A DNA stretch of 53,339 bases from a virus (lineage: Duplodnaviria; Caudoviricetes), in the IMG/VR virus record IMGVR_UViG_3300022921_000024, positions 1-53,339 of that record, one strand, 5' to 3'. Below the pieces are notes generated by a model, which ran no database searches, was not told where the DNA came from, and saw only the letters and a list, made by a program, of their open reading frames with translations. The position numbers and the translations under genes are program-made. Positions 6,362 through 38,894 of the stretch are shown piece by piece (within the stretch, counting starts at the first letter, position 1; every line of letters begins with the position of its first letter).

Positions 6362-6384
6362 CATATTAATCTAATTCAATCGCT

Positions 6385-7545
6385 ATGTCAGAAGACCTAG
6401 AAAACTTGGCTACTAGTCTTGGTTTAAACCTTGTCAATAGCCCTCAGGAATCGGAACAGACTCCCGAACCTGCAGAAGAATCAACTGAGCCAATTGTTGG
6501 CGGCGTTGAAGAAGAGTCTAACGTTCTTGAAAATACATCTGAGGAGGCTGCCGAGGAAACGGTGTCAGAAGAACAGCAAGAAGCTGTTTCTGAAACAACC
6601 GTCCCTGAAACGGAAGCATCCGATGAGCCGCAAACTGTTAGTTTTTCCGATGAGGAAATCATCAAGGCCGTTTCCGAAATGGTTGGGATTGATGGGACCT
6701 TCTCTAAGGAGGAACTAATAGAACTTTTAACCTCTAGTGGTGATGAGGTCCAGCAAGAACTTGACCCAACGGTCAAGGCAATTGCAGACTTTATCTCATC
6801 TACCGGGAAAACGGCAGACGATTGGTTTATGTATCAGTCCTTTAACCCATCCGAAATGGATGATTTGACTGTGTTGAAAACCGACCTTCAGCTGCAATAT
6901 CCGGACTTATCCGAAGAAGATGCGCAACTTCTGATGGAAGCTAAGTACAAGTTAAACTCAGACGAGCATAGTGAGAATGATGTTCGACTGGGTATGCTGC
7001 AACTTAAAATGGATGCAAAAGCTGCTAGAGATGGACTTGAAAAAGTCCGAGAATCATATCGCGTTCCAGAGCGGAAAGAAGTTAAGCAAGATTCGAAAGA
7101 AGATGCTGTATTTCAATCTCCAATTGACGATGCGTGGATTTCAAATATGTCAAAGACTGTTGACTCAATGGAAACATTGAAATTCAACGTTGGAGACAAG
7201 GAATTTAACTTCGGGTTAGATTCAAAGTACAAGAGTTCTTTGAAAAGCAGTAATGCAGATTTAGAAAACTATTTCGTTCAGTATATTTCTGAAGACGGAA
7301 GTTGGGACTTTAATAGGTTATCAACTCACCGCGCAGTAGTTGACAACATCGACGCCATTGTCAAGGCCGTTTACGGTCAGGGCCTTAGTGACGGTCAAAG
7401 CAGTGTTGTAAAAGAGGCCGTAAATCCTTCTAGCACCGCTCCTTCTTCTAGTTCTGTTGACACCGCTTCTGCAGAGGACAAAGTACGAAAGCAAATTCTC
7501 AACGCCTTGAGGGGTGGCGACGATACTCTCTCAATTCGTTTTTAA
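6385..7545 (+). CDS. Capsid scaffolding protein (module 1)
   Basis: Very acidic, disordered N-terminus, helical core and YGQGLSDG motif. Immediately upstream of the capsid gene, as in phi38:1/crAss-like phages. Confidence 0.75.
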   Translation: MSEDLENLATSLGLNLVNSPQESEQTPEPAEESTEPIVGGVEEESNVLENTSEEAAEETVSEEQQEAVSETTVPETEASDEPQTVSFSDEEIIKAVSEMVGIDGTFSKEELIELLTSSGDEVQQELDPTVKAIADFISSTGKTADDWFMYQSFNPSEMDDLTVLKTDLQLQYPDLSEEDAQLLMEAKYKLNSDEHSENDVRLGMLQLKMDAKAARDGLEKVRESYRVPERKEVKQDSKEDAVFQSPIDDAWISNMSKTVDSMETLKFNVGDKEFNFGLDSKYKSSLKSSNADLENYFVQYISEDGSWDFNRLSTHRAVVDNIDAIVKAVYGQGLSDGQSSVVKEAVNPSSTAPSSSSVDTASAEDKVRKQILNALRGGDDTLSIRF

Positions 7546-17592: not shown

Positions 17593-17600
17593 TATATTTG
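17593..17600 (+). promoter_or_regulatory. -7 element TATATTTG
   Basis: Upstream of the probable start ATG 17628. Confidence 0.6.
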
Positions 17601-17627
17601 TTGTGCTCAAACTTCAAGCACGACATT

Positions 17628-26600: not shown

Positions 26601-26957
26601 GGTATGGAGAAGTTCTTTGCGGAGAACATCCTAAAGTCAAATGCAAACTTAGGTCCGGCACTAAAGTCTCATATCGCCACTATTCGCGATGTAGACCGTC
26701 GCTTCAAAGGAAATGTTGAAGTTGCATTTGCCCTTCATCAGGTTCGAGAAACATTGGGTCAGAAAGAGGGTGAGGACTTCGCTATGGCAGCGTTGCTGTA
26801 CTATGGCGCTCACGGAAAGTCTGAGATTCAAAACGCTATCCAACAGCAGATACTGTTCTATGGCGTAAACAATAGCATTCTTGGAGAGATTGCCCCTGAG
26901 TCAGAAGAGGCTCAGTATGATGACAATCACAACTACATAGACCCGAGTTTAAAGTAG
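17628..26957 (+). CDS. Giant internal virion / polyvalent ejection protein (about 3109 aa) with zincin-like HExxH
   Basis: Gly/Ala membrane-like region (aa about 420-630), EEGLEE motif, AFHEAYH...LAEEIWAE zincin pattern, long helical C-terminal part. Start moved from TTG 17598 to ATG 17628. Confidence 0.75.
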   Translation: MEPEEIKGKVERFQAAGVDKETITGWFKSKNIGGWESYYDPNYGQSGKANAASAGSGASAATTGSTSNNGGGSFLSAYKPQQTQITDPTEGGLYTEEEVRAKRADKFQSGSRLQTMEAAGDLAYNLNTLQTTLGDMQAMFERGAQARAEGKSFEDAFPNLTTDYVSGLTEEQKAQNALSSSATFRQEKPFQDYMLGSYQALESLNVKVSALVDEKEQDQGFKENMARAGFDGSMSLQQALNQYTPSIVSYTNEANSAFAGAGANEIVTVDENGVSINEDAYNNLAVTMDAFQKEQDERLAQERKTLEGHGDLWQFGYDMMTGVKNISMDLEGMYTEIVGTDSEMESLQYEQYLQGFRRTASLQLDGLSNEEIEKGVVENILEGNFDAGFSILTTDLAQTMPQLAAQAAITYGTGGFGSLALRGAAGTAARFGMTGTARSLATSTFARNMSYWAGAGFMGSTTAGNTLISTYGTMEDSQRYQMAVGNAVVETLSERLFVGDIKAVLGTELKGLTRREIRQRVFGTGLFSSEMRALSADLAKKSGKQFLKNAGEEGLEEFVAGLGSAWIEGFVTGKPMQINYAELADQFLIGAAAGGAAGSVGAAKRGNFLKASFASVGVLSSNYVNIRAERVAAEEAVRNARDEAEASRLQGRAQALAAVEAQTRGEEIAILENMTDEQLGTATTLYHRIRNAAFVANNEKATEEEKQAAILDGKKANAELKALKEQTAPAGLVAEREREAVANFDFGTEGTIEVSDKTDAQGSSFVAELSKIATALGGNKVLLHKDYDAAAASAGKNKEDLLGSRGFYKADDGSIHIVLPAAQSNTAFHEAYHAIARNVDPKYLKNWLAASMPALMELPTELQNKYAAYFEKYGNDKSEQGKRLLAEEIWAEMRADIATGKITVENSGSALSHGIAGAMNAALRGLGLKINKYQSFKDFSDFMDATTESLKKGTQVGRFQEERFDAPTTNRDVLSQMEKSGVDGSIDPQTFLFTINSQNAQQATQEPNKPADPAVVTETASTAVRQAAKGLSEGSSINLTNEGPANPVDGYMVGDGRNEIQISKSEITEMTPQQLSEKISSIVEQYQGDGFAEMEGKPHLGVFVEGDMVTIDRSHQVASVERGMDIAITNSERSIYDVANDKVIETQDVKSDNLMFQIDPAAIPAGETIKLKKGKYGSSVMRAGIPMKNFQQVVADFRAQYGKDPVIALWMGDQSGYGVYTLTDGSTTNLEGGLGHLINKDNMAKGVAWATNKSDGGVQGVLQNADIVAEVSGHPVKSSRFYKKTTEVMAREFAIAWKKSAGKTIKHGKYEVVVPKMPKGSNEVDAIKSYMTLVIEAYRNDGKAAPAQFENILTQGKKVGTVQYINLSEIENLEDLVNNERRTSLIANVLGSFEATKSTQEALAALGMPTEEQITDQLRDGYLLENEFQEGDIYGYYMPKRENGRVVTQPGNHSTYQTDIMGEMVAVASERQNVFDMVPAFYHLRELKTTGRARIKAAQEQGLTDAGGKITKDGKIVRRIELTIVEPDVNVDELSDKEAESIVKRIARAAKAKFESGELTRDQYEFFYSGKSGRVSTDVAADLQRMRVMNSQATIVQANAMLATMAAGMTWEQKVDAMNKQVARFKDAGYKAADISTFLDEFYGDLRDEMGDVGKAGYPQYGHSQTGEGLLFQSGLYIDIANMLAGGKTEAQVRAQLIADGFSVNDAKLLVAKAKGYKIGMNAGRRAGHKSAMEIHTERMKAQREKEKDSTKAFRNEAKGRLLNMNQINDELVNALVEMVEKYGNVKLTSAQLKSILRGISATQKKIYKKGMADDGKFALTVVALVDRLANIIEKQHTAKQIAEQNDLLRKVRAKQKALKNQLAKLPKTSRSPLISYFDEVNELTSVEAGHLSMASLKALDGGLDALKETTKQVSATTNKSGQVVIRNPYVLINGKQIDFRRAKVYFNELVAPLTIEANAYEQALIAADIQNYMDATGADFASASAAIMQAKAEKNMKQYEKALKQIADDLGLDITNVQELELALEAMAEEKNEQQDARRREVISQVITPTAVIWRNWLAAEPDFADIFGLGAPTSSTKVSTSPWMFLGWQGGLSADDLAQHIEARMDRLSFGQLRRVEFAMFDYIVNGRALGTRALGAEVMARNEGRDEMAALNMTASDTREKKGGAIRNWIFSNLETTPTFFRRIFLLNSETQVAKYMNALGFSSLRSNAAKADVRHATVMGSINEMLQGYKLNNAYSETALQIYAMVMQKPAGMAPAEWALALRKQFEMAAEKDNRYNAKVMEQKKKAINDFFFGPTGALQLEQIQAKLEAVDNLTAAWSFIGNSFQVREHLLADYAEAFLGQRFVSEENYIPFSFRRGGDIETLQNQVDNAKTIRTMLDSYSQSKMGKRASATFERNPDAIKTSGRYIDLNFFGTIDRTHKENEVKIATSVDVSYISEMTSERNDAFTKSVPSEAVRSDIRQKVYDHLIDQRKTFGDEALSPTAKKWITQGRSAMVLYYFGAVVDQIAKQSAPMWNTLAETKNFDSKMEFLGSLVGQFNSEIRGVLSGDMDAKQQLSNSFDIGNRNVRDAVISFTGDRPATGDKTSFEKGVDLSTKSLVVTDKIVAGASWFAYYKDWHYQNGMKPSEWSWQEAAKSPNSEAAEYASLMVSKDQNISTGRDASKFNRSTGGISIGLVKSFMIPFVDFLMNKKMNMMIDAQKLAFGSAKIKGDAIRSTAGTVAEIAHFQTMAWMVLSPLYAGLGAMVASIFGVDDDEDDSWFSEKFNLDMWKRGMITDLNPYVMPFKLMEDGWIGMWNMANYYTSDEREALVAQTGDERKAYDIWLKVQGIPSFGGVRDDADAMQKVLSYTGPAGSIVSNYTYGMSNIATLQEDVPYYVTSSGTKKFLTEDEANRMTAIEAFKVTYLTFGFATGLMFKEVNSAVKSAERGVTKRAVTNEDVGLDRVMAERLMNKLEGQELTMDLFYEAIVEEIKINPLGAEAFGSARIKGMEKFFAENILKSNANLGPALKSHIATIRDVDRRFKGNVEVAFALHQVRETLGQKEGEDFAMAALLYYGAHGKSEIQNAIQQQILFYGVNNSILGEIAPESEEAQYDDNHNYIDPSLK

Positions 26958-27796: not shown

Positions 27797-27879
27797 TGCT
27801 ACAGCATAAAGTAAAAAAAAAAGAAGTCTTGAAGATTATTAAAAATCATTTTAAAGACTTAAAAAAACAAGAAATAAAG

Positions 27880-27902
27880 AAGGGGGCATAAGCCCCCTTT
27901 TT
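27880..27902. terminator. Bidirectional terminator separating plus-strand virion genes from minus-strand replication genes
   Basis: AAGGGGGC-ATAA-GCCCCCTT, flanked by A-rich and T-rich tracts. Confidence 0.85.
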
Positions 27903-28070: not shown

Positions 28071-28159
28071 AGTGATACGTTTTTGAGGTTAATAAAGAAA
28101 GAAAATCCCGACCGAAATGGCGATTCGGCCGGGACATTTGTGCGTACAAATATACTAAA

Positions 28160-29015: not shown

Positions 29016-29108
29016 AGTTTAGTGTTTTGCAGTTAAAATAATTAGTAAAATCATCTTTTTTTACTGTTGCCGTTTGAACCCATTTTGGTTCGTCATCGTG
29101 GGTAATTG

Positions 29109-29354
29109 TCATTTCTCGTTGGTGTTAAAGGTTTGCGCCTACTTTTATATGTGTGCGCTTATAATTTGATGGATAAGCCCATCTTTATATGCTTAAACAT
29201 ACCTTAATGGTGTAAATAAGCACCATTCAATCGGCTTATTTTACACTTTGAGTGCTTTTCATTTTACACTTTGTCACACTATACCCTTACTTTGTACACT
29301 GCGTTGTAAGGTTATGCCCTTACTTTTTTCATTTCTCTTTGGTGTTAAAGGTTT
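29109..29354 (-). repeat. 26-bp direct repeat with one mismatch (29109-29134 and 29329-29354)
   Basis: Minus strand reads AAACCTTTAACACCAA(C/A)GAGAAATGA, i.e. TFNT(N/K)EK-stop with an overlapping ATG. Confidence 0.85.
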
Positions 29355-29726: not shown

Positions 29727-29856
29727 CTTTATCTAAGATTGGTTTACGGTCTAGCCAAGTGCGGTACATACGTGCCGCTACAGCAATGCGCTGTGGGTAG
29801 AATGGGTAGCTCTTACGCAACCGAGCAAGGGCTATCCTGATAAACTGGTCTCTCAT
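29704..29856 (-). CDS. Small basic protein (50 aa, MRDQFIRIALARLRKSYPFYPQR...)
   Basis: Read manually. TGATG coupling with the helicase stop. Confidence 0.6.
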   Translation of the reverse strand: MRDQFIRIALARLRKSYPFYPQRIAVAARMYRTWLDRKPILDKDDIDGIY

Positions 29857-30815
29857 CAGAATTCAATGTTTTTTTGTTCCATCACCTTGGGTTCGGTATG
29901 CTTTGGGTGACTATAGGTCCGCGTACCAAACTCATCCATCACATAGTACCTGTTGCTCAGTCTATCGTAATACATATACAATGAGCCAACATTACCAACA
30001 GCCTTCGGCTTTGCTTTTACAACACTAATCTTTACCTGATTAGGTTCGTATGGAATACCGTTCTCGTCTTCCAGTCCATATGGGCAACGCCATACGTTTA
30101 TCACCATCATACCCTTGCGTGACCACTGCATACCTCCGGCAATATCGTTCATCGTCGGTACGTCAACATAAGGGATGCCGTTCTTGTACTTCGCCTGTTG
30201 ATGTTTGGTGTGTACGGTAACGATGGTATGGTAATCCTTATCGCTAGAATGTTTACGCACTCGCGTTAATATGTTTCCAATGGCGATATCGTCCCGTACT
30301 CCGGCGTTTATATCTGTCTTTATCTCCGTGAATGGGTCTACCAGACAACCGTCTATCTTAATTCCTCTGTTCTCTATCTGCTCTACGGCAGTATAGAATC
30401 CTTCAATGCTCAGGTCCTTAAGCCCTGAATCAATAACGAAGAAGTGCTCTCTGAGGAACTCTAAGGCATTCTGCGCCTCAACATCTGTAGCGTTAACCTT
30501 ATCATTGAGTAGGTATGGCTTACGAAGGTAGCACCACGCTAACTCGGCATAAACCTCAGCAGGACTTCCTGTCTCTGGAGTGTATACTGCCCACTTCCAT
30601 CCCTCAAACTGGGATAGGTTCATCATAAGTTCAAAGGCGAACTGAGATTTACCTTGGTGTGCTCCTGCGTAGATGTATGTGGTGGAGCCTCTCTTGATGG
30701 AGTACTTTTCAAACAGGGCATCAAAGCCTGTCCATTCGCCCTTCTTTACGCCTGTATGGCGCATATTTTTAAGTTGGGACTCCAACCTATCCAGTGTATA
30801 AATAAATTCCTGCAT
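29856..30815 (-). CDS. SF4 (DnaB/Twinkle-like) replicative helicase domain
   Basis: Walker A-like YAGAHQGKS, catalytic E in YTPE, Walker B LVDPF, VTVHTK, DIAGGMQW, and KAK (Arg-finger region). Confidence 0.85.
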   Translation of the reverse strand: MQEFIYTLDRLESQLKNMRHTGVKKGEWTGFDALFEKYSIKRGSTTYIYAGAHQGKSQFAFELMMNLSQFEGWKWAVYTPETGSPAEVYAELAWCYLRKPYLLNDKVNATDVEAQNALEFLREHFFVIDSGLKDLSIEGFYTAVEQIENRGIKIDGCLVDPFTEIKTDINAGVRDDIAIGNILTRVRKHSSDKDYHTIVTVHTKHQQAKYKNGIPYVDVPTMNDIAGGMQWSRKGMMVINVWRCPYGLEDENGIPYEPNQVKISVVKAKPKAVGNVGSLYMYYDRLSNRYYVMDEFGTRTYSHPKHTEPKVMEQKNIEF

Positions 30816-30835
30816 TTCATTTTGGTTTAAGAGTT

Positions 30836-31081
30836 TTATGTTGCTTGGCCAACCACCTTTGATTCGTACACCTTCATCACTTCTAGACGGACAATCTTCT
30901 TACCCTTAAGCCCTAGCTGCTGTATAGCAAAGGCGTAGTTTACATTGTCCTTTGTGATGTCTTCGGGGGATGTGTAGCGAGAGATTGCGTACCCATTTTT
31001 ATAGTGGTTTATCAATGCGCTTCCGCGCTTTGTGGACCACCGGTACTGAACCTCGTGATGGTAGATGTTCTTGTCTTCCAA
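30836..31081 (-). CDS. Hypothetical protein (81 aa)
   Basis: ORF in the replication operon. Confidence 0.55.
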   Translation of the reverse strand: MEDKNIYHHEVQYRWSTKRGSALINHYKNGYAISRYTSPEDITKDNVNYAFAIQQLGLKGKKIVRLEVMKVYESKVVGQAT

Positions 31082-31143
31082 TTTAAAAAGTGGGGGTTTC
31101 GTGGAATGGTCCTACGCAAACCACTACTCCCCCCTATTTTTAA

Positions 31144-31383
31144 TTAGAACAAGTCATCGTTCGTAGCGTTGGCAGGCTGTGCCTGAGGCGTGTACTGTTG
31201 TGGTACTTCGCCATACCATTCGCCTTCTTTGTTCTTCTTGATGTCAAAGACCATCCAGCCGTTTTGGTTGGTTTCTCCTTTCATCATTTCAAAATCACGG
31301 GGACCCATAGATACCTTGATGATTTCTCCGTACTTGGTAGGAGTTGTCTTGAACTTGCCTACGTATTTGCGCTTGTTTTCCAT
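31144..31383 (-). CDS. Putative single-stranded DNA-binding protein
   Basis: Small beta-rich core, P/Q linker and acidic-aromatic tail NDDLF. Confidence 0.6.
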   Translation of the reverse strand: MENKRKYVGKFKTTPTKYGEIIKVSMGPRDFEMMKGETNQNGWMVFDIKKNKEGEWYGEVPQQYTPQAQPANATNDDLF

Positions 31384-31384
31384 T

Positions 31385-31819
31385 TTAGTCGTTTGTTAAA
31401 AGTTGCTTAATGTGGTTCAGCTGGTCTTTAATTTTCTCAACTGTAACCTTTAGAATCTTGACCTCCTTGTGAAGGTCTTCATACGTAACTCCTACGTTTT
31501 CCAGAGAGTTTGTAACTCTATTGTATAACGCTGAGTATCTTTTGTCTGCCATCCTATTGTCGTGAGACATTACATAGGTATGCGATACCTTTAGGTCAAC
31601 GCCTAGGATATCTGAGATTGATTGGTACGTGTAGCCATTTTCACGTAGAATCACAGAGACGAGGCTTCGCACGTTTAAAACCTCTTTCTTTCTAGAGCCT
31701 CCTAGGAGTTCGTCTATGTGGACCATACCTGCTTCGCAGGATAGTTCAATGACGGACCTAGACAGCTCATCAAAGGAGCTTAATCTCTGCTGCGCGGTAG
31801 GGGTTGAATTCATTTTCAA
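31385..31819 (-). CDS. DnaA domain IV/TrpR-like HTH protein with C-terminal coiled coil
   Basis: LLGGSRKKEVLNVRSLVSVILRENGYTYQSISDILG resembles the start of Bac_DnaA_C. Confidence 0.6.
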   Translation of the reverse strand: MKMNSTPTAQQRLSSFDELSRSVIELSCEAGMVHIDELLGGSRKKEVLNVRSLVSVILRENGYTYQSISDILGVDLKVSHTYVMSHDNRMADKRYSALYNRVTNSLENVGVTYEDLHKEVKILKVTVEKIKDQLNHIKQLLTND

Positions 31820-32507
31820 GAAACAATTGTTTGTATTTAGATATAGCCTCTTGAGCCTTTATGGCCCCTTGGACTATGAACTGAGACGAGCACTCGTAGA
31901 TTCCAATGTCGTATGGGAACGACTTTGTGATGACTACGAAGTAGAACTTCTCAACTCCAAACAGATGGCAGTAAACTGCTGCCTGTTGGTCATAGCCCAT
32001 ATACTTAGCAGAGCGACTAAACTCGGACAACTCACCACCTGTGGTCTTTACGTCTACGAGATAGGCTGGAGCGAAGTCCCTCTCAACAACAAGGTCTGCC
32101 TTGCCTTTGATAGGTATTCCATCCCACTCCCCAATAGCCGGAACTTCTGGGGTGCTATCCGTGTACATAAGGTCACAGGCTTCAGGACACTTCCTTAGAG
32201 CCTCGTTCATCTTGTAAAGGGTATCTGCATCTTTCTGTGTGAGAATAATCTTCTCTGAGTTTTCTTCACAGAACGCGGTATAATCTTTACCTCTACGTGT
32301 TCCTTCAAATCCAACGAAGACTTCCTTGTCCTCCAGTGCAAGGGCGTGGAACGCCTTGCCCATCTCTAGAGCGTTGGAAGAAGAGTCCAAACCCTTCTTA
32401 TTCAACCACATATAGAAAAGCGATGGCGACTTATGTAACAACTTCAATGAAGAGTTAGTTAGGTACTCCCGGTCGGCGTAGTATTCTTCGTCAGATTCAA
32501 ACATCAC
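31770..32507 (-). CDS. RecE/DUF3799-like PD-(D/E)XK exonuclease
   Basis: YYA...LTNSSLK, GKAFHALALE, KGKADL...VDVKTT, YDQQAAVY. Confidence 0.85.
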   Translation of the reverse strand: MMFESDEEYYADREYLTNSSLKLLHKSPSLFYMWLNKKGLDSSSNALEMGKAFHALALEDKEVFVGFEGTRRGKDYTAFCEENSEKIILTQKDADTLYKMNEALRKCPEACDLMYTDSTPEVPAIGEWDGIPIKGKADLVVERDFAPAYLVDVKTTGGELSEFSRSAKYMGYDQQAAVYCHLFGVEKFYFVVITKSFPYDIGIYECSSQFIVQGAIKAQEAISKYKQLFLENEFNPYRAAEIKLL

Positions 32508-33007
32508 AAGCCTAGTTCAGCGATTTGTTCTTTGCTTGCTTCGTACTTCTTTAAGGCTTCACGAACCTTGTCCTCCTTGCCCTCGGATAGCGCGACCTTC
32601 ATCTTATCCATCACCTCCGTAGTGAGAGGTTGTTTGGATGTGGTGAGGTTTTGCTTTCCAATGGCCACTTGAACTTCTTGCGCTGAGGCGATAGATGTCT
32701 CAATGCCGATTCCAAGGTTGGCTAGTGCGCGACCCCAGGCAGAGGTCTCAGCGTTCTCCACATACGAGGTCTTATTGACCATTGATGAGGAGCGGTCTTC
32801 CTGTGCTAGTCCCATCGCCACCACAGCACCTTCGGTGTTGCGGATTGATGCACGAACTACGCAGGAGTTCTCGTCTAACGAGAGGAGTTCTGTTTCAAGC
32901 GCCCAGCCGTCGTACCGGGGTTCAGTACGGAAGTACTTGATTCGCTCGTTGACTTCCACATACTGCTTACCGCGGATGTTGGTTGTCTTGAATTGATAGT
33001 TTGCCAT
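32504..33007 (-). CDS. Single-strand annealing protein candidate (Rad52/Sak-like)
   Basis: GKQYVEVNERI...SYVENAETSAWGRALANLGIG. Adjacent to the exonuclease. -7 element at 33036-33043 on the minus strand. Confidence 0.65.
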   Translation of the reverse strand: MANYQFKTTNIRGKQYVEVNERIKYFRTEPRYDGWALETELLSLDENSCVVRASIRNTEGAVVAMGLAQEDRSSSMVNKTSYVENAETSAWGRALANLGIGIETSIASAQEVQVAIGKQNLTTSKQPLTTEVMDKMKVALSEGKEDKVREALKKYEASKEQIAELGL

Positions 33008-33052
33008 TAGTTGATTGTTTTGGTTAAACTTAAGTCAAATATAATACAAAAT

Positions 33053-33517
33053 TTATATCCCGCAATAACGATTCTGTATTTTTTCAATGATTCCATTAGC
33101 CAGTATCTCTGACTGAACGTGGTCCAAGTCATTTAACTCTATAAAATCTTGGATTTTATCTAGTATGTTAATCTGAAGGGACTCTCTGTTGTCAGTGTTT
33201 ATACCTAGCATCACTTCACAGTAATCTATGATTGACTTGGTGTTTTCATACGCCTTGTGTATGTTGCCCTGAGAACCTTCAAGAAGGCTCTTTCCTCTTC
33301 TACAAGCGTGGATTATCGTTGAGTGATTCTTCTTCATAGCATTGGCTATCGTCTGATACGACATACCGTAATAGTTTCTAAAGAGTAGCGATACGCAGCT
33401 TCTGTAGTCCACATAGGCGGCGTACCTATGTTCAGCTGTTATATCAATTCCAACTCTGGACTGGAGTTCATCTAAAGTTCGTCTAAGTAGGAGTGATGCT
33501 TCTGCTTGTTCAATCAT
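33053..33517 (-). CDS. DnaA domain IV-like HTH protein
   Basis: MSYQTIANAMKKNHSTIIHACRR matches the DnaA C-terminal signature (S...IG......DHSTV.HA). Confidence 0.75.
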   Translation of the reverse strand: MIEQAEASLLLRRTLDELQSRVGIDITAEHRYAAYVDYRSCVSLLFRNYYGMSYQTIANAMKKNHSTIIHACRRGKSLLEGSQGNIHKAYENTKSIIDYCEVMLGINTDNRESLQINILDKIQDFIELNDLDHVQSEILANGIIEKIQNRYCGI

Positions 33518-33587
33518 AATTTCTGGGGTTTTTTAGGTTAGTCGCGGTACGGTGTCCGGTTTGTCCACCGAACGAACACTTCAAAAG

Positions 33588-33710
33588 TGAACACATATAT
33601 AGGGTTGCCCCTTTCACTATATAGGGTAAGAAAACCCCTAAAGGGTTTTCTATACTATATAGAGTATATACTATATAGAGTATATATACTATATAGGGCA
33701 TACTATATAG
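33588..33710. repeat. Left CTATATAG array (5 copies), hairpin and 13-bp terminal repeat
   Basis: TGAACACATATAT at 33588-33600. CTATATAG at 33617, 33655, 33671, 33689 and 33703. Hairpin AGAAAACCC-CTAAA-GGGTTTTCT at 33629-33651. Confidence 0.9.
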
Positions 33711-34101
33711 GGAGGTAGAACTTAAGTCCTTCAAGAGCTTCGTCAAGTCGCAACTTGAGCCTCTCGTTCTCCTCTTGCAATTCTAGGCACTGGCCTCTGG
33801 CTAGTGTTAGGTGTTTGGAGAGTTCAGCATTTTGCTGAACTAAATCGCTGTTCTTTGCAATCACATCCCTATGTTTCGCTCTTGCCTCATCTATCTTCCC
33901 AGATATAGAGGCTATGTCATCCAAACGAAACTTGTACTTGTAGGTGAATTCGGAGAGGCCAAGGTAGGCCTTCTCCAAATCTCCACGTAGAGGGCTGTTT
34001 TCTTTCGTTAGAGAGCGTAACACCCCTGCTAGAGTATCCAAGTATGCGTGAGCGACATTAAGGTCGTTAAACGCAAGGATTTCATATTCGTCCTTAACCA
34101 T
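33703..34101 (-). CDS. Coiled-coil hypothetical protein (probable start MVKDEY at 34101)
   Basis: Long heptad C-terminus. The stop falls inside the repeat array. Confidence 0.65.
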   Translation of the reverse strand: MVKDEYEILAFNDLNVAHAYLDTLAGVLRSLTKENSPLRGDLEKAYLGLSEFTYKYKFRLDDIASISGKIDEARAKHRDVIAKNSDLVQQNAELSKHLTLARGQCLELQEENERLKLRLDEALEGLKFYLPI

Positions 34102-34351
34102 TGAACGAATAGGTCTCGCGGTCAAACACTACCTCCTTAATTGATTCCGGACGTACACTGCGGTATCCATCCTGCATATCAAAGAAGTTCCAGTTCTCGT
34201 TCTTCAGTGTGCTTACGCCACCCTTAACGAACTTGTGTACGCCAAAGCGCCCACGAAGGAAACGCTCCTCACCATCTTTCTTGATGAACCGTACAGAGAA
34301 GAACTGTCCGCTCTTCTGGATTTCTGATTTGAGTTGATTCAGGTTTTTCAT
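34094..34351 (-). CDS. WYL_2/SH3-like beta-barrel protein
   Basis: FFSVRFIKKDGEER...FFDMQDGYRSV pattern. Confidence 0.7.
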   Translation of the reverse strand: MKNLNQLKSEIQKSGQFFSVRFIKKDGEERFLRGRFGVHKFVKGGVSTLKNENWNFFDMQDGYRSVRPESIKEVVFDRETYSFNG

Positions 34352-34429
34352 AGTTCAGTTGTTTTTTGTTTTTGCTAAGTTACAATCGGTTGGTAATCAG
34401 TTCAATCACCATTTTAGGTCAATAAATAT

Positions 34430-34555
34430 TTAAATTGTTTCATCCTGTAGGTCCAGCTGACCAAGGCAATGGTTTAGCTGCTGATTGAGGAACTCGTTCC
34501 GCTGTTCAAGTGATTCAATTCTGTATTGTAAATACTTAATTAAGTTGGCATCCAT
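34430..34555 (-). CDS. Small coiled-coil protein (41 aa, MDANLIKYLQYRIESLEQRNE...)
   Basis: Read manually. Has its own promoter-like leader. Confidence 0.6.
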   Translation of the reverse strand: MDANLIKYLQYRIESLEQRNEFLNQQLNHCLGQLDLQDETI

Positions 34556-34919
34556 AGTTTCTAGTTTTTAAGTTGTTTTTGTTTCTTCTAAATTACAAAG
34601 GCCTGATAACCAAAGCGTAACCATTTTTAGTCAAGATATCTCAAAAATTATTCATTTTCCAAATCACAGAAAAAATATTTCAAAAATCAAAAGTCCAGGA
34701 TTTTTTTCCCTATTCGCGTTAAGCGCTCAAAAGCTTGTAGGCATATGCGCCCGGAGTGTGCAGGAAACAATGACACGTAGCGCCCGCGCTAGGCGTTTTA
34801 TGCTCTTGATGTACCATCCGCCACGTGCACGCGTGCAGGTGCGCACACGGGTACATATAGGGCAGAAATTGACCCGGGGAAATTCCCGGGCCTTTTTCTC
34901 TGTTTTTTTGGGTCATTTT

Positions 34920-35114
34920 TTAGATGAAATTTAAACCCATAACGTAGGAACGGACCCGGTCCAGACTGCCGTCAATTCGCCATACTTTGGCCCAGTTTTG
35001 AAACCCGTTTTCCCGCGTCATATATTCGGCTCGCCAGTGGTCCTGGGCTAACTGAATCAGGACCAATTTTTTGAGCGTATTCGGGGCCTCTTTATATCTT
35101 GATAAATTAGGCAT
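34920..35114 (-). CDS. Hypothetical protein (64 aa)
   Basis: Overlaps the stop of the Gp88-like gene. Confidence 0.55.
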   Translation of the reverse strand: MPNLSRYKEAPNTLKKLVLIQLAQDHWRAEYMTRENGFQNWAKVWRIDGSLDRVRSYVMGLNFI

Positions 35115-35886
35115 ATTTTAAGACGTTTTTAGGGGTTAAAACTGACGAAACAGCGGCCCGCGTTTCACTGATTACGAAGCCCGACCCATCGCGCTTTGCA
35201 TCACCTTTGGCCCGTAGACCTAGGACCACGCCCGAAAAATTCAGCATCTCAATGTCGGAAGCGTCCCCGTCTACCACCCGGAACCCGTGCCAATATTTCG
35301 GCAATTCCTTACCTGCGAAAACGGCGGCAACGTTTACGCCAATTTTTAGCAATTGGAGCGCTTGCGCTTCGTTATCCTCAGAACGTGAAAAGGTGACACA
35401 ATACCGGTGCCCTTGTGAGGTGACCCGGTCCCCTGCTTTTTGTGCGATTTTGGTATAATCGTAAAAAACCACATTTGGCGCTATTTCGTGCCGGTCTGTT
35501 AACATTTCCACTAGTTTGAGGTCGCTCGTCCCGTTCAAACGTATGGCAATGTTTTGCCCGGTTTTTTTGGCCTCTTTTTTGGCTGCCTTGTTTATTTCCT
35601 GCGCTAATTGCAAAAGGAAGCCGGCCCGGTCCCGTAGTAGGTATTCAGTCCTGTTAATTCTGGCCTGCTGGACGTTGTTAAAACGGCCCCGGCCTGCACT
35701 GAAAAGACACGCCGCCCGGCAGCCTTCAGATGACTTTGGGCAAAGGTTACGCCCGGCGCTGTTTTGGCTCGCAGGACTCAGGTACAAAATATACGTTTGA
35801 AGGCTGTTTTTTGCTGTTTTGGCATTGGTGTCACCTGCGCTCAATAATTTGGCAGGGGTTCCGGTGGCTTTGTAGGTAGTTAGCAT
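35107..35886 (-). CDS. Gp88-like protein (radical-SAM-related, Cys triad)
   Basis: NLCPKSSEGCRAACL, RLNGTSD, FYDYTK, TFSRSE, VVDGDASD, GLRAKG. Confidence 0.8.
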   Translation of the reverse strand: MLTTYKATGTPAKLLSAGDTNAKTAKNSLQTYILYLSPASQNSAGRNLCPKSSEGCRAACLFSAGRGRFNNVQQARINRTEYLLRDRAGFLLQLAQEINKAAKKEAKKTGQNIAIRLNGTSDLKLVEMLTDRHEIAPNVVFYDYTKIAQKAGDRVTSQGHRYCVTFSRSEDNEAQALQLLKIGVNVAAVFAGKELPKYWHGFRVVDGDASDIEMLNFSGVVLGLRAKGDAKRDGSGFVISETRAAVSSVLTPKNVLKYA

Positions 35887-35914
35887 TTTTTAAGTTTTAA
35901 GGGGTTTAAAATTA

Positions 35915-36061
35915 TCAGAGAAGGAAAGACCCGACCCAGCCGAAAAAGTGTACCACAATTGAAGCGAAGGCCATAAATAAGACCCCTGCAAGGGTGAGAA
36001 CGAAGGAGCCGGCAATTATTACCGCCCCCTTCTTTATTTGTTTTTTTGCTTCTGTTTTCAT
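35915..36061 (-). CDS. Small membrane protein (48 aa, MKTEAKKQIKKGAVIIAGSFVLTLAGVLF...)
   Basis: Read manually. ATGA overlap with the upstream ORF. Confidence 0.55.
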   Translation of the reverse strand: MKTEAKKQIKKGAVIIAGSFVLTLAGVLFMAFASIVVHFFGWVGSFLL

Positions 36062-36297
36062 TGCTCAAAAAAATTAGATATAATATTTTCCTCAATTGCG
36101 GCCCGCAGGCCATCGGGTAAGCTTAATTCGTGCCCGTTTACCAATAGGCGGAACGGCTCTAAGGTATCAATGTAGGCGAATTCCCGCGTCATATGCTCGG
36201 CCCCTTCAATGCCTCGGCGCTGGGCGTACACCCCTTCTATAGATACCTGAATTCCTAGGCGCTCAGGGTCGCACCCTTCTAAATAAATCTCTTGCAT
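36058..36297 (-). CDS. Hypothetical early protein (probable start MQEIY)
   Basis: TAATG coupling with the upstream ORF. Confidence 0.55.
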   Translation of the reverse strand: MQEIYLEGCDPERLGIQVSIEGVYAQRRGIEGAEHMTREFAYIDTLEPFRLLVNGHELSLPDGLRAAIEENIISNFFEQ

Positions 36298-36428
36298 TAT
36301 TTCCAAAGGTTTAAAGGGTTAACGTTGTGGGCGCTGTTGTCCTGGGCTTGTTGTGCTTCTAATATTTGGCGAAGCGTTGGAGCCGTCAAGGGCTCTGTTG
36401 TGGCTCTCAGTATTTCTTTGAGGTTCAT
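36297..36428 (-). CDS. First early ORF (43 aa, MNLKEILRA...)
   Basis: A-rich leader and -7 element TACATTTG (36458-36465, minus strand). Confidence 0.45.
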   Translation of the reverse strand: MNLKEILRATTEPLTAPTLRQILEAQQAQDNSAHNVNPLNLWK

Positions 36429-36729
36429 CTTTTGGGTTTGTTTTGGTTTAACTGGGCCAAATGTATACACAGACCACGCCCCCCCACAAGTCCCCGGTTC
36501 ACTTTGACTAATTCCGTGCACTATGTGACCAATAAAGCATAATTTCCACCCACTAGGCGCCCAGTACGGACCAAAAGTTGACCAAAAAAGGTATGACCGG
36601 AAATTGAAACCGCAGAAAGGTGGGTAAGCCACTCTGAGCGCGGGGAACTGGCTTTTGGGGAATGACAATTGTGTTCTAACATTGATGTTGTAACATATAT
36701 TCTCCATACTGTATAGTATTTTGTAGATA

Positions 36730-36873
36730 CTATATAGTGTATACTATATAGGGTATACTATATAGTATATATACTATATAGGGGTTTCTCTATATATAGA
36801 GCAATACCCTATATGGGTATTGCTAATACTATATAGGGTGCCCTATATAGTACTGTCCCCATATATGTGTTCA
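36730..36873. repeat. Right CTATATAG array (6 copies), hairpin and inverted 13-bp terminal repeat
   Basis: CTATATAG at 36730, 36744, 36758, 36774, 36829 and 36843. Hairpin AGCAATACCC-TATAT-GGGTATTGCT at 36800-36824. ATATATGTGTTCA at 36861-36873. Confidence 0.9.
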
Positions 36874-36930
36874 GTTTATGGGAAGTGAAGCATTTAGATG
36901 AATGCTCATTCATTTGTTGTATATTTGGAT

Positions 36931-37212
36931 ATGAGCTTTGAAGAGTTGTTACTAGAGTTGCTGAAGACGTCCTTTCCCAAGGGTCCCTTGAAGTCTGAGA
37001 TGTTCAAGAAGCACAATGAGCTGGTAGGCAAGAGTGTCTACATCAAGAAGGCAGAGAGTGAGTACACGATGTGCGGAAGTTGCATTATGCGTGTCAAGAG
37101 CAATCTGTTCAAATACTACCACCACGAGTACGAGCCTAAGTTTGACTCGTTGGTGTTTATGGACAAGTATGTCTTAGATAAGCGTCCAGTGTATGGGGTC
37201 AATAAGAAATAA
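36931..37212 (+). CDS. Hypothetical protein with CGSC motif (probable start MSFEE)
   Basis: -7 element TATATTTG at 36920-36927. First gene of the plus-strand packaging operon. Confidence 0.6.
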   Translation: MSFEELLLELLKTSFPKGPLKSEMFKKHNELVGKSVYIKKAESEYTMCGSCIMRVKSNLFKYYHHEYEPKFDSLVFMDKYVLDKRPVYGVNKK

Positions 37213-37651
37213 GGATGGTGTGGTCGTAAGAGGAATGGGTGCAGAACTCACCCCTATGCAGGAAGAGTTCTTGAACCGTATCCGCGAAGAGGGCATCAAC
37301 AACCAAGGCAAGATTGCCAAGGAACTTAACTACACGAGCTACTATCGTGATAAGTCAAACTACGGTACGGCCTTCCACTTAGCCCTGAGAGACGTTGTAA
37401 GGCTCTCTGAGGAACGAATAGAGGTGGCAAAGGGGAGTAACCTAGACTTACTCGTAAAGATGCGTGACGAGGCATTTTTGAACGGTGACACCAAGACGGC
37501 CCTTGAGACCATTAAGATTATAAATGATATGCAGGGCTACAAGGCACCCGTTAAGGTCCAGCAAACGAAGATTGATGTGAAGGCTACCATTGACCTCACC
37601 AAACAACCTGACGAAGACGAGGGCTTCATAGATATAGATTATGAAGATTAA
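37193..37651 (+). CDS. Terminase small subunit candidate
   Basis: N-terminal HTH-like LTPMQEEFL...GKIAKELNY, helical middle and beta tail. Directly upstream of TerL. Confidence 0.65.
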   Translation: MGSIRNKDGVVVRGMGAELTPMQEEFLNRIREEGINNQGKIAKELNYTSYYRDKSNYGTAFHLALRDVVRLSEERIEVAKGSNLDLLVKMRDEAFLNGDTKTALETIKIINDMQGYKAPVKVQQTKIDVKATIDLTKQPDEDEGFIDIDYED

Positions 37652-38894
37652 CTTATACAATCCCAGCAAACCGCAAAGGGATTTCCTAAAGGTCATCCAC
37701 GATGACAAGCCTTTTGTTACACTTATTGTTGCAGGGCGACAGACAGGCAAGACCTTTATGATGATGAACGACGCAGTAATGCGTGGTCTCAATAAACCCC
37801 GCACTAGGATGTTCTGGGTAAGTCCTATTCAGGACCAAGCCAATAAGGTTATGAAGGACATAGAAGCTGCCTTTATCAATCACCAAGACGTATTCCAGCA
37901 ACTTGTCAAACGCTTTGACAGGAAGAACAATGAGATGTACTTCCATAACGGGAGCTTTGTGAAGTTCCGCTCTGCGGACTCTGGCGACAACCTTCGTGGT
38001 GCGACATTAGACTTTATCTACATTGACGAGGCGGCCTTTATGAAAATTGACTTCATTAACGAGGTTTTGCTTCCTATGGTCACTCGTACCAGCGGGCGGG
38101 TGGTAATGTCTAGTACGTTCAATGGTAAGAACTGGTATTGGGAGTGGTATCAGCGAGGGTTGGTACCTGAGAACAAGGAAGACATCATTTCCATCAAACG
38201 AACCTATCTGGACCTTGACGACCCAGAGGTATCAAAGACGGTATTGGGGATTAAGAAGAATATGACCAAGGCGCAGTTTGACCAAGAGTTCCTCTGTCGT
38301 CCTGTGAGCGCCGATGCGCTCTTCAGCAACATTGAAGATGCTGTCTTCAAGCACCCAAACACCGAAGAATACGAAAGGATTTATATCGGGATGGATATTG
38401 GTGTCGCGCAAGACTATACGGTACTCACCGCTATGAACGAGCGCTACGAGGTGGTTGACATAGACCGTTTCCACTATAAGGAGGATGGTTTAACTTCGGA
38501 AACCTTCAAGCAGCGCATCAAAGACTTCTACTTCAAGCACGACAACAAGCTCGCCGCTGCCTACTTTGAATTAAACAACAACGACCTCCTGTTTGAGGAG
38601 ATAACGGATGACGATAACGTCTACAAGATTATCCCCTTCCAAACAACTGCCCAATCTAAGCCTGAGATTATCAGAAACCTCATCAAGTTGTTTGAGGACA
38701 AGATTATTAAGATACCTGACTACGATGAGCTGGTGAAGGAGTTGTACGACTTCAAAAGCAAGCGTAATCCAATCACCGGAAACTTGCAGTTCAGCAACAC
38801 TGAAGGCAAGCACGACGATATGGTTATGAGTTTAGCCATTTGCGCTTATTGCGCAAGGGAGGAGCAGGATGGTGGCGTAACGATGTTCTTATGA
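37641..38894 (+). CDS. terL: Terminase large subunit
   Basis: Walker A GRQTGKT, LRGATLDFIYIDEAAF (Walker B), SST motif III, nuclease GMDIG..QDYT and HDDMVMSLA. Confidence 0.95.
   Translation: MKINLYNPSKPQRDFLKVIHDDKPFVTLIVAGRQTGKTFMMMNDAVMRGLNKPRTRMFWVSPIQDQANKVMKDIEAAFINHQDVFQQLVKRFDRKNNEMYFHNGSFVKFRSADSGDNLRGATLDFIYIDEAAFMKIDFINEVLLPMVTRTSGRVVMSSTFNGKNWYWEWYQRGLVPENKEDIISIKRTYLDLDDPEVSKTVLGIKKNMTKAQFDQEFLCRPVSADALFSNIEDAVFKHPNTEEYERIYIGMDIGVAQDYTVLTAMNERYEVVDIDRFHYKEDGLTSETFKQRIKDFYFKHDNKLAAAYFELNNNDLLFEEITDDDNVYKIIPFQTTAQSKPEIIRNLIKLFEDKIIKIPDYDELVKELYDFKSKRNPITGNLQFSNTEGKHDDMVMSLAICAYCAREEQDGGVTMFL

What the first reader, a model, noticed from the sequence alone, without database searches (positions are those of the whole stretch)
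33577..36887. Mirror-image CTATATAG arrays with a 13-bp inverted repeat enclose the 3-kb early region
Seen: the left element reads TGAACACATATAT (33588), one CTATATAG, a 9-bp CCC/GGG hairpin, then four CTATATAG spaced 14-18 bp apart. The right element is the mirror: four CTATATAG spaced 14-16 bp, a 10-bp CCC/GGG hairpin, two CTATATAG, then ATATATGTGTTCA (36861), the exact reverse complement of the left 13-mer. An outer CACTTC/GAAGTG pair extends the symmetry. The right element sits at the divergence between the early genes and the terminase operon. Inference: these could be paired iteron origins, two packaging-initiation sites (possibly one per virion type), or ends of an invertible segment. 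No recombinase is visible in the window.
Basis: partly seen in the sequence, partly recalled or inferred. Interest (0 to 1): 0.8.

Follow-up and report, generated by a model that had tools for sequence, protein, structure and literature searches.

The report
Paired binding-site arrays in uncultured phage
Two clusters of a repeated short DNA word bracket the early genes of an uncultured phage, the same layout recurs in its relatives with different words, and they are most likely docking sites for a phage protein that starts DNA replication or switches gene expression.

Summary
All 11 exact CTATATAG copies in the 53-kb genome lie in two clusters (0.64 expected by chance). Each cluster has a perfect 9-10-bp-stem palindrome in its middle and a 13-mer inverted repeat on its outer side.

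The "mirror image" holds only for the gross layout. The extended unit ACTATATAGNG points the same way in 9 of 10 copies.

The layout is conserved. In 30 of 33 related uncultured phages with enough upstream sequence, a second cluster 4-7 kb away shares the repeat words of the cluster in front of the terminase operon. The word itself differs between sub-lineages.

In all 30 relatives the distal cluster abuts the start of an operon that opens with, or carries as second gene, a small protein homologous to DnaA domain IV. Recombination genes and a DnaB-like helicase follow.

No recombinase is encoded, so an invertible segment is rejected. The putative small terminase has the same DNA-reading helix in lineages with different words, so packaging sites are unlikely.

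Best reading (about 0.4): iteron arrays of a two-part, SPP1 oriL/oriR-like replication origin. Close rival (about 0.3): operator arrays of a temporal transcription switch. Read-level tests could not be run.

The parts
33588..33600 (+). Left outer 13-mer TGAACACATATAT. It overlaps a degenerate site, ATATATAG, at 33595-33602.
   Evidence: 21-nt inverted repeat with 36857-36877 (I20)
33617..33624 (+). Left array, single CTATATAG site outside the hairpin
33629..33651 (.). Left palindrome/hairpin AGAAAACCC-CTAAA-GGGTTTTCT
   Evidence: A CCCTAAAGGG-type centre recurs in the left hairpins of classes F and H.
33655..33710 (+). Left array, four tandem units ATACTATATAG(G/A)G at 33655, 33671, 33689 and 33703. 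The last unit overlaps the stop codon region of the upstream gene Rg.
   Evidence: (D3)
33053..33517 (-). dnaAC1: a 154-aa protein with an N-terminal DnaA-domain-IV-like helix-turn-helix and a helical C-terminal part. It is the first gene downstream of the left array.
   Evidence: Pfam PF08299 E 7.4e-9, 36.0 bits against a cut-off of 31.5. Family profile against PDB 1J1V E 3.4e-10. AF2 model pLDDT 84.5. The top Foldseek hits are DnaA.
33703..34125 (-). Rg: a 140-aa coiled-coil protein whose 3' end runs into the left array. Conserved in relatives.
36709..36799 (+). Right array, inner part: a degenerate CTGTATAG (36709), four exact units (36730, 36744, 36758, 36774) and CTATATATAG (36790-36799)
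36800..36824 (.). Right palindrome/hairpin AGCAATACCC-TATAT-GGGTATTGCT. Its centre, CTATATGG, is itself a one-mismatch site.
36829..36850 (.). Right array, outer pair: TACTATATAGGG-TG-CCCTATATAGTA, two units in inverted orientation
   Evidence: (I6/I8)
36861..36873 (-). Right outer 13-mer, the reverse complement of the left one
36593..36647 (+). Class-independent conserved non-coding boxes beside the right array: TGACCG (36593-98) and CCACTCTGAGCGCGGGGAA (36629-47)
   Evidence: Alignments. A regex found the pair in 26 of 48 relatives. No consensus RNA fold on either strand.
36898..36927 (+). Conserved ATGAAT..ATTCAT palindrome plus TTGTATATTTG just before the first gene of the terminase operon. 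Candidate late promoter.
   Evidence: inference
37193..38894 (+). Putative small terminase (37193-37651, named by position only) and large terminase (37641-38894)
   Evidence: TerL: Pfam and PHROG hits. TerS: no family hit; conserved helix-turn-helix-like stretch.
29856..33007 (-). Rest of the operon headed by dnaAC1: p167 (32504-33007), PD-(D/E)XK exonuclease (31770-32507), second DnaA-domain-IV paralogue dnaAC2 (31385-31819), two small ORFs, and a DnaB-like helicase (29856-30815)

Best explanation
The two elements are lineage-specific arrays of protein-binding sites (iterons). They are most probably read by the small DnaA-domain-IV-like protein encoded directly behind the left array, and together they form a two-part replication origin of the SPP1 oriL/oriR type.

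The left array sits at the 5' end of the operon that carries the initiator-like gene, an exonuclease, a probable annealing protein and the helicase. It would be the site where the protein assembles, opens the AT-rich repeats and brings in the helicase. Because the sites reach the start of the gene, the same binding would also limit the protein's own expression.

The right array sits in the longest non-coding stretch, between the early genes and the terminase operon. It would be a second high-affinity platform: either a second origin or enhancer, or, as proposed for SPP1 oriR, a bound barrier that stalls forks and triggers the recombination-dependent switch to concatemer synthesis.

Shown: the arrays, their conservation, their restriction to two places per genome, the gene order, and the DnaA-IV homology. 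Inferred: which protein binds, and every step of replication.
For: (1) Arrays are non-random and unique. All 11 exact copies lie in two clusters, and these are the strongest tandem arrays in the genome. No other iteron-like array lies in or near the replication module.

(2) The pairing is conserved. In 30 of 33 TerL relatives with at least 4.5 kb upstream, a distal 150-bp cluster shares at least 9 8-mer positions with the terminase-proximal region. The 3 misses have only 5.3-6.2 kb of flank. The real score exceeded every control reference window in 29 of 29 relatives with at least 7 kb upstream. Median real score 21.5 (30 rows, the window's own included) against a median control maximum of 4.

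(3) The word differs by sub-lineage, with about 7 classes. None of the 80 relatives carries CTATATAG arrays. In 5 complete or near-complete relatives the class word occurs only at the two arrays. This is the pattern of co-evolving protein/site pairs.

(4) The distal array abuts the start of a minus-strand gene in 30 of 30 relatives and in the window. A DnaA_C-type ORF is the first gene, or the second gene in class F, in 30 of 30.

(5) That protein family is a DnaA domain IV homologue. Pfam PF08299 is above its cut-off. The profile matches PDB 1J1V at E 3.4e-10, with the basic-loop arginine and the DHxTVxH signature aligned. The fold agrees. Related proteins of cultured Pelagibacter and Cellulophaga phages are annotated as replication initiation/DnaA by their depositors, on domain similarity alone.

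(6) Downstream genes are an exonuclease, a second DnaA_C paralogue and a DnaB-like helicase. No polymerase was found among the ORFs scanned, so host replisome recruitment at an origin is needed.

(7) Precedent, read in passages of PMC6316719. SPP1 has oriL inside the initiator gene and oriR in a long intergenic region of the late genes. Both consist of direct repeats plus an AT-rich element and both are bound by gp38. Fork stalling at oriR is proposed to switch replication to concatemers with the phage exonuclease and annealing protein.
Against: No experiment or read data bear on replication.

GC skew gives no independent signal. Its only switches coincide with changes of coding strand, and the long + strand block shows no second switch.

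Unit spacing of 14-18 bp is irregular and shorter than classical 19-22-bp iterons (recalled). Most sites are palindromic, as in operators.

The protein lacks the AAA+ and helicase-loading domains of DnaA.

The second paralogue dnaAC2 lies nearer the helicase and could be the true initiator, leaving dnaAC1 as a regulator.

In class F a sigma-70 region-4-like gene is inserted directly at the array, which hints at transcription.

The right array keeps a fairly constant distance to a conserved promoter-like motif (78-134 bp), as upstream regulatory sites do.

Overall identity of dnaAC1 does not track site class: 23% between classes H and F, which share sites, and 24% between A and B, which differ. 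Binder identity therefore rests on position and fold only.

Two cultured phages with DnaA_C proteins showed no tandem arrays of comparable score (at most 61, against 76-91 here) in the 10-kb stretches inspected.
Confidence: 0.4

Rival explanations
1. Operator arrays of a phage transcription regulator (dnaAC1 or another lineage-specific protein). The arrays sit at the two ends of the early cassette and time the programme. At the right array the protein shuts off or insulates the leftward early promoter and/or activates the rightward terminase/structural operon. At the left array it gates read-through into, and autoregulates, the recombination/replication operon. The two arrays may loop together as lambda OL and OR do.
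For: Both arrays lie exactly at operon boundaries: the only divergent region, and the junction between the early cassette and the dnaAC1 operon. In most classes the sites are palindromes of 8-17 bp, typical of dimeric regulators. In relatives the sites run up to the start codon of the downstream gene. Class F has a sigma-70 region-4-like gene inserted at the array. The right hairpin keeps 78-134 bp to a conserved promoter-like motif, ATTCA..TTGTATAT, and 108-128 bp to a conserved G-run box. DnaA itself also acts as a transcription factor (recalled).
Against: Five to ten sites per array is many for an operator (recalled). The candidate divergent promoters, TAnnTTTG-like at about 36459-36466 (-) and 36920-36927 (+), lie outside the right array rather than under it (inference). 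The only family assignment of the adjacent protein is an initiator DNA-binding domain. No expression data could be obtained.
Confidence: 0.3
2. Packaging signals. The arrays are small-terminase binding sites (cosB/pac-like). In a variant of this reading, the two elements mark the two boundaries of a 3.3-kb direct terminal repeat that carries the early genes, as in T5 or SPO1.
For: The right array lies 60-210 bp upstream of the terminase operon, next to a class-independent G-rich box. This layout resembles lambda cosN-cosB-Nu1 (recalled). The sites-centre-sites order resembles P1 pac (recalled). An unrelated phage group has a single TACTATATAGTA array directly upstream of a 257-aa gene plus TerL. 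Fifteen of 60 relatives' contigs that end upstream of TerL end within 700-1300 bp of it.
Against: The putative TerS helix-turn-helix-like stretch KIAKELNYTSYYRD is the same in classes A, B, C, D and G, whose arrays differ. TerS therefore fits the conserved boxes better than the arrays. The left array has no terminase context and always abuts the dnaAC1 operon. Contig ends scatter through the array region instead of piling at one base, as repeat-induced assembly breaks would. Two relatives flagged as terminally repeated have only 28- and 120-bp overlaps far from the arrays.
Confidence: 0.08
3. Ends of an invertible or otherwise mobile 3.3-kb segment.
For: A 21-nt, 90% inverted repeat lies at the outer edges. 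The gene content between the arrays varies between relatives, with the arrays 3.2 kb apart in the window and about 4.1-7 kb apart in relatives.
Against: No tyrosine or serine recombinase is present in the genome, and no transposase was seen among the scanned ORFs. Extended units are direct: 9 against 1. The outer inverted repeat has no room in relatives whose arrays touch the start codon. Rg and wyl85 keep one orientation wherever tblastn found them among the 33 long-flank relatives (wyl85 in 32). The relative orientation of the arrays is not conserved: 12 direct, 13 inverted, 6 ties.
Confidence: 0.02

Closest known systems
Bacillus phage SPP1 oriL / oriR bound by the origin-binding protein gp38
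   Same: Two separate arrays of direct repeats in one phage genome. One is at the initiator gene and the other in a long intergenic region beside late genes. A DnaB-type helicase, an exonuclease and an annealing protein are encoded nearby (SPP1 facts from passages of PMC6316719).
   Different: gp38 is not a DnaA-domain-IV protein (recalled). SPP1 oriL lies inside the gene and the two origins are about 13 kb apart. Here the array is upstream of the gene and the pair, 3-7 kb apart, brackets the early cassette. Each array has a central perfect palindrome. Nothing here has been tested.
Bipartite chromosomal origins (Helicobacter pylori oriC1-dnaA-oriC2; Bacillus subtilis)
   Same: Two clusters of sites for a DnaA-domain-IV DNA-binding fold separated by coding sequence. 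The cluster upstream of the binder's own gene can also autoregulate it (H. pylori: search listing and abstract of PMC3479198; B. subtilis and autoregulation recalled).
   Different: The phage protein is domain IV plus a short helical tail, with no AAA+ module. No host-type DnaA boxes are enriched: 2 found against 6.1 expected. The sites are AT-rich palindromes, not 9-mer DnaA boxes. The enclosed genes are early genes, not the binder's gene.
Lambda ori iterons / O protein and lambdoid ori-specificity types (recalled)
   Same: Four or so tandem units, each with internal dyad symmetry. The unit sequence and the initiator co-vary between related phages. The origin lies in a transcribed region next to or within the initiator gene.
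   Different: Lambda has a single array inside gene O, units of about 19 bp and a different protein fold.
Lambda OL/OR operators flanking the immunity region (recalled)
   Same: Two arrays of the same palindromic site a few kb apart. They flank a cassette and sit at the starts of outward operons.
   Different: Lambda has three sites per array, a CI/Cro fold and a temperate lifestyle with integrase. Here there are 5-10 sites per array, no integrase and no prophage copies found.
Lambda cosN-cosB-Nu1 and the lambda/21 cosB specificity pair (recalled)
   Same: The order: conserved box, then variable protein-binding sites around a central element, then terminase genes.
   Different: The TerS reading helix does not vary with the arrays. 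A second array lies far from the terminase genes.

Membership tests
Iteron-type replication origin | Several tandem copies of one protein-binding unit, confined to the origin region(s) | tested here: met
   5 and 6 exact units (up to 10 with one-mismatch copies in the right array), found nowhere else in the genome. The same holds in 5 complete or near-complete relatives.
Iteron-type replication origin | A cognate initiator gene next to the iterons, co-varying with them | tested here: inconclusive
   A DnaA_C-type gene is next to the left array in 30 of 30 relatives. Arrays vary by lineage. Overall identity of the protein does not discriminate same-site from different-site pairs.
Iteron-type replication origin | An AT-rich unwinding element and actual initiation of DNA synthesis | not testable with these tools
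   The arrays themselves are AT-rich. No replication data exist, and the skew is confounded by strand of transcription.
DnaA domain IV (PF08299) DNA-binding fold, for the protein at 33053-33517 | Sequence match above the curated cut-off, including the basic loop and the DHxTVxH signature helix | tested here: met
   36.0 bits against a cut-off of 31.5. Profile against 1J1V E 3.4e-10. Aligned signature NHSTIIH in the window protein.
DnaA domain IV (PF08299) DNA-binding fold, for the protein at 33053-33517 | Same three-dimensional fold | tested here: met
   AF2 pLDDT is 90-97 over residues 11-100. The top Foldseek hits are DnaA: probability 1.00 and TM 0.70-0.72 to isolated domain IV, although E is only 0.04-0.06.
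Full-length DnaA initiator | AAA+ ATPase domain III and helicase-interacting domain I | tested here: not met
   The protein is 154 aa. Only domain IV matches, and the rest is three helices. It is not a DnaA orthologue.
Repressor operator arrays (lambda OL/OR type) | Sites overlap the -35/-10 of the regulated promoters | tested here: inconclusive
   The sigma-70 consensus scan is not enriched: 11 found against 8.0 +/- 3.5 expected. Candidate TAnnTTTG-type promoters lie outside the right array. The host promoter type is unknown.
cos/pac terminase recognition site | Site specificity tracks the small-terminase DNA-binding helix | tested here: not met
   The TerS helix stretch is the same in five array classes.
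cos/pac terminase recognition site | Defined DNA ends or read-start pile-up at the site | not testable with these tools
Contig ends scatter.
Site-specific invertible segment | An invertase/recombinase and inverted recombination sites | tested here: not met
   No PF00589 or PF00239 match in the genome. Units are mostly direct.

The most novel reading that the evidence does not exclude
A clade of uncultured aquatic phages uses a minimal "domain-IV-only DnaA" as its initiator. Its two lineage-specific iteron arrays are deliberately placed at both ends of the early-gene cassette. Loading of this one protein would then start replication at the left array. It would also wall off or loop out the early genes and prime the neighbouring late (terminase) operon at the right array. 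In this way replication onset, early shut-off and the theta-to-concatemer switch would be coupled through a single nucleoprotein complex.
Probability: 0.15. Interest if true: 0.75.

Novelty: new variant of a known kind. Interest (0 to 1): 0.55.

Why it matters
The clade is abundant in public data: 206 confirmed TerL relatives in IMG/VR. Its closest cultured TerL is only 27% identical, so nothing is known about how these phages replicate or time their genes.

The arrays provide three things:
- A clean, testable cis element.
- A single best candidate trans factor.
- About seven natural specificity variants for swap experiments.

If the origin reading holds, it would define a new initiator type built on DnaA domain IV alone. 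It would also give a second example, after SPP1, of a two-site phage origin. If the operator reading holds, it would define the master switch of the clade.

Tried and rejected
- Read-level test of inversion, termini and coverage. 
- Homodimer prediction for dnaAC1 gave no verdict. It counts neither for nor against dimer binding.
- DNA similarity to cultured phages: none.
- Prophage or host search in GTDB genomes. There was one close hit, on an 11.9-kb MAG contig that again ends near the right array, and no prophage context. The host remains unknown.
- Rfam, E up to 1, over 33000-37300: only a chance-level lncRNA hit. No tRNAs.
- RNAalifold on the conserved boxes, both strands: no structure.
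- Identifying the binder by covariation. Pairwise identities of nine proteins do not separate same-site from different-site lineage pairs.
- Host DnaA boxes: not enriched.
- A T7-like promoter reading of ACTATA(TA)GGG. Rejected because no single-subunit RNA polymerase was found among the large ORFs, and the 3119-aa ORF has no family hit.
- Terminator reading of the hairpins. They did not meet the terminator scan, unlike the canonical terminator at about 27876-27900.
- Profile-based search for distant dnaAC1 loci failed because the alignment was too diverged. Cultured phages with DnaA_C proteins showed no tandem arrays of comparable score in two 10-kb stretches.
- Literature searches for phage DnaA-domain-IV proteins and paired phage iterons returned nothing on this clade. 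Supplements were not consulted.

Full report
**What the window is**

The window is one complete IMG/VR virus record: 53,339 bp, no end repeats, CheckV completeness 100%. Genes on the + strand run from 36.9 kb to the end and on from 1 to about 27.7 kb. They encode the terminase, portal, virion proteins, tail proteins and a 3119-aa ORF. A minus-strand block runs from about 36.4 kb down to 28 kb. The right element therefore lies in the only divergent region. The left element lies inside the minus-strand block.

No DNA similarity to cultured phages was found. The best cultured TerL is 27% identical, from Thermus phage P74-26.

All 11 exact CTATATAG copies fall into two clusters. Shuffles give a mean of 0.64 and never more than 3. 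Tandem Repeats Finder ranks these two arrays far above everything else in the genome: scores of 76-91 against at most 46.

Two refinements matter.
- The conserved unit is longer than the palindrome, ATACTATATAG followed by G/A/T then G. It points the same way in 9 of 10 copies (D3, 15). Only the outermost right copy is inverted, giving the local palindrome TACTATATAGGG-TG-CCCTATATAGTA.
- One-mismatch copies fill the gaps, including the centre of the right hairpin. The right element is thus a nearly continuous run of up to ten sites over about 150 bp.

The CACTTC/GAAGTG pair is present but unevenly spaced, and the left hexamer pairs locally. I give it no weight.

**Relatives**

The large terminase retrieved 206 confirmed relatives from IMG/VR, of which 80 loci were returned at 70-92% identity. 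None has CTATATAG arrays.

I then asked, for each locus, which 8-mers recur in the 600 bp in front of the terminase operon and where else they cluster. In 30 of 33 loci with at least 4.5 kb of upstream flank a single distal cluster appears. The three misses have only 5.3-6.2 kb of flank.

As a control I used other 600-bp reference windows. The best distal cluster then scores 0-8, against 9-52 for the real reference. The real score exceeds every control in 29 of 29 relatives with at least 7 kb upstream. The window's own control windows contain its left array, so they are not a valid control.

The shared word differs by sub-lineage:

| Class | Word |
|---|---|
| A (window only) | ATACTATATAGTAT |
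| B | TACTATTATAGTA |
| C | AGTATACT |
| D | AAGTATATACTT |
| E | ACTAATATATTAGT |
| F and H | ATACTATTATTATAA |
| G | TATAATGTAATTACATTA |

In five complete or near-complete relatives the class word occurs only at the two arrays.

A perfect palindrome with a stem of 6-17 bp and a loop of 3-7 nt was found in the left array region in 30 of 31 genomes and in the right in 30 of 31. A few of the picks are doubtful because my right-hand search window was fixed. Stems differ between classes while staying complementary.

The relative orientation of the two arrays is not conserved: the best direct match wins in 12 genomes, the best inverted match in 13, and 6 tie. "Mirror image" therefore describes this genome, not the family.

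**Context is conserved**

Gene order in relatives, written left to right as on the + strand, is:

helicase ... dnaAC2 - exonuclease - p167 - dnaAC1 | left array | Rg - wyl85 - variable early genes - conserved non-coding boxes | right array | conserved promoter-like motif - o104 - TerS - TerL.

The left array touches, or lies within about 50 nt of, the start codon of a minus-strand gene in all 30 relatives. In the window the gap is about 70 nt.

That gene is of two kinds.
- A 143-179-aa type in 19 relatives and the window. Pfam finds the DnaA C-terminal helix-turn-helix in 4 of the 5 relatives tested and in the window protein.
- A 231-244-aa type in 11 class-F relatives. It shows a sigma-70 region-4 match in 3 of 5 tested.

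A profile built from the short type shows that class-F genomes carry a short-type gene immediately behind the long one. A DnaA_C-type gene is therefore at or next to the left array in 30 of 30 relatives. Most genomes also have the second paralogue, dnaAC2.

The family profile matches the E. coli DnaA domain IV-DNA complex (1J1V) at E 3.4e-10. The match spans the basic loop and the signature helix. The AF2 model is confident over that domain, and its best structural neighbours are DnaA. The remaining 50-90 residues are helical and very variable.

**Who binds**

I could not settle this by covariation. dnaAC1 is the fastest-evolving protein of the region everywhere, at 17-35% identity. It is no more conserved between classes H and F, which share sites, than between A and B, which do not.

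Two observations still point to it.

First, the putative small terminase and o104 have essentially the same candidate DNA-reading stretches in classes with different arrays. This argues against them as binders. It fits TerS better to the class-independent boxes TGACCG ... CTCnGAGCGGGGGGAA. Those boxes lie 108-128 bp from the right hairpin centre in classes B, F and H, and only about 24 bp away in class D.

Second, the classes share a pentamer, TACTA/TAGTA, arranged with different spacings and orientations. The dnaAC1 signature helix is largely conserved, while its presumed oligomerisation tail is not. This second point is my reading of the sequences, not a test.

**What it does**

Inversion is rejected, for four reasons.
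- No integrase or resolvase is encoded.
- The units are direct.
- Rg and wyl85 keep one orientation in the relatives where they were found.
- There is no room for an outer inverted repeat in relatives.

Packaging is unlikely for the arrays themselves, and the left array has no terminase context. Contigs do tend to end near the right array: 15 of 60 truncated loci end 700-1300 bp upstream of TerL. But the ends scatter within the repeats, as assembler breaks do. Two relatives labelled as terminally repeated have 28- and 120-bp overlaps elsewhere, so their maps are circular. A collapsed multi-kb terminal repeat between the arrays cannot be excluded without reads.

Two readings remain.

*For an origin:*
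- The arrays are the only iteron-like repeats in the genome.
- The adjacent protein carries the DNA-binding domain of the bacterial initiator.
- The operon it heads contains an exonuclease, a probable annealing protein (assigned by position and a recalled Rad52-like motif only; there is no family hit, and no similarity to the HTVC035P annealing protein) and a DnaB-like helicase.
- No polymerase was seen, so the phage must recruit the host replisome at a defined site.
- A well-studied phage has the same two-site arrangement. In SPP1, oriL lies in the initiator gene and oriR in a long intergenic region of the late genes. Both consist of direct repeats plus an AT-rich element and both are bound by gp38. 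Fork stalling at gp38-oriR is proposed to trigger the recombination-dependent switch to concatemers (PMC6316719, passages read).

*For operators:*
- The positions are exactly at operon borders.
- The sites are palindromic.
- The sites reach the start codon of the downstream gene.
- A sigma-r4-like gene is inserted at the array in class F.
- The distance from the right array to a conserved ATTCA..TTGTATAT motif in front of the terminase operon is fairly constant. The related word TTGTAKATT also precedes three other + strand genes.

Candidate TAnnTTTG-type promoters for the first early ORF (about 36459-36466, minus strand) and for the late operon (36920-36927) lie outside the right array. That leaves about 450 bp of probably untranscribed DNA holding the boxes and the array. 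This looks more like an origin or enhancer region than like promoter occlusion. However, the promoter assignments are my inference and the host is unknown.

GC skew cannot help. Its switches coincide with the coding-strand switches, and the 44-kb + strand block shows no second switch.

I put the origin reading, with autoregulation as a side effect, at about 0.4 and the pure transcription reading at about 0.3. They are not exclusive, since DnaA boxes do both.

**Novelty and score**

Iteron arrays, operator pairs and two-site origins are all known, so this is a new variant rather than a new kind. The new elements are these:
- The binder candidate, a stand-alone DnaA domain IV.
- The strict placement of the pair around the variable early cassette.
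- The central palindromes.
- The clean series of natural specificity classes in a large, uncultured clade.

Interest is moderate (0.55). It would be higher if the coupling of replication onset, early shut-off and late activation through one complex were shown.

Noticed in passing
window 36593-36647; relatives at about -1090 to -940 from TerL: Two class-independent non-coding boxes, TGACCG and (C/T)CnCTCnGAGCGGGGGGAA, about 30 nt apart. Many relatives have a second G-run. The pair lies 108-128 bp left of the right hairpin in classes B, F and H. A regex found it in 26 of 48 relatives. No conserved RNA fold on either strand. Because TerS and TerL are conserved across array classes, this is a candidate pac/cos or other conserved DNA signal.
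   Followed up: partly
window 36898-36927, and 6351, 47990, 49561: TTGTA(T/G)ATT occurs 6 times against 1.4 expected. Four copies are on the + strand, 6-29 nt before + strand gene starts. The copy before the terminase operon follows a conserved ATGAAT..ATTCAT palindrome and reads TATATTTG, like a Bacteroidota -7 box (recalled). Possible late promoter and a hint to the host.
   Followed up: partly
class-F relatives, e.g. L075:2492-3211(-), L091:2791-3525(-): A 231-244-aa gene with a sigma-70 region-4-like helix-turn-helix is inserted between the left array and the DnaA_C-type gene in 11 relatives. It is absent from the window.
   Followed up: partly
window 17598-26957 (+): A 3119-aa ORF with no Pfam or PHROG hit. 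Homologues of 2.7-3.6 kaa exist in metagenomes, and some carry PF18838.
   Followed up: partly
window 34343-34443 and 34557-34655: Two roughly 100-nt units, 70-76% alike and 213 nt apart, in the early cassette. Each precedes a small minus-strand ORF and contains TTGTAA(C/T)TTAG on the minus strand. This looks like a duplicated promoter-leader module.
   Followed up: no
window 29106-29354: Repeats downstream of the helicase gene in a stretch without long ORFs: a 29-nt unit twice, 220 nt apart, and ATTTTACACTTTG twice, 23 nt apart. Relatives have TTAAAGGTT recurring every 200-280 nt in the same place.
   Followed up: no
L014, L015, L021, L023, L024, L026, L028, L031, L032, L034 (unrelated IMG/VR contigs): A different phage group has one array of 3-4 perfect 16-bp palindromes, ATTACTATATAGTAAT, at 17-18-bp spacing. 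The array follows a terminator-like hairpin and lies directly before a 257-aa gene and a large terminase. There is only one array in the complete 47.5-kb genome.
   Followed up: partly
L013:5450-5533 and 6324-7262; window 35107-35886 (-): Another unrelated contig has five 19-bp iterons, GATCTATATAGGGCTTTGG, about 1 kb from a GP88-family (PF17338) gene. The window carries a GP88 gene inside the enclosed cassette. Among relatives GP88 is present in only some, and on either strand.
   Followed up: no
window 27876-27900 and 28100-28136: Canonical GC-stem plus T-run terminators at the convergent junction of the two gene blocks. They contrast with the array hairpins, which lack T-runs.
   Followed up: no
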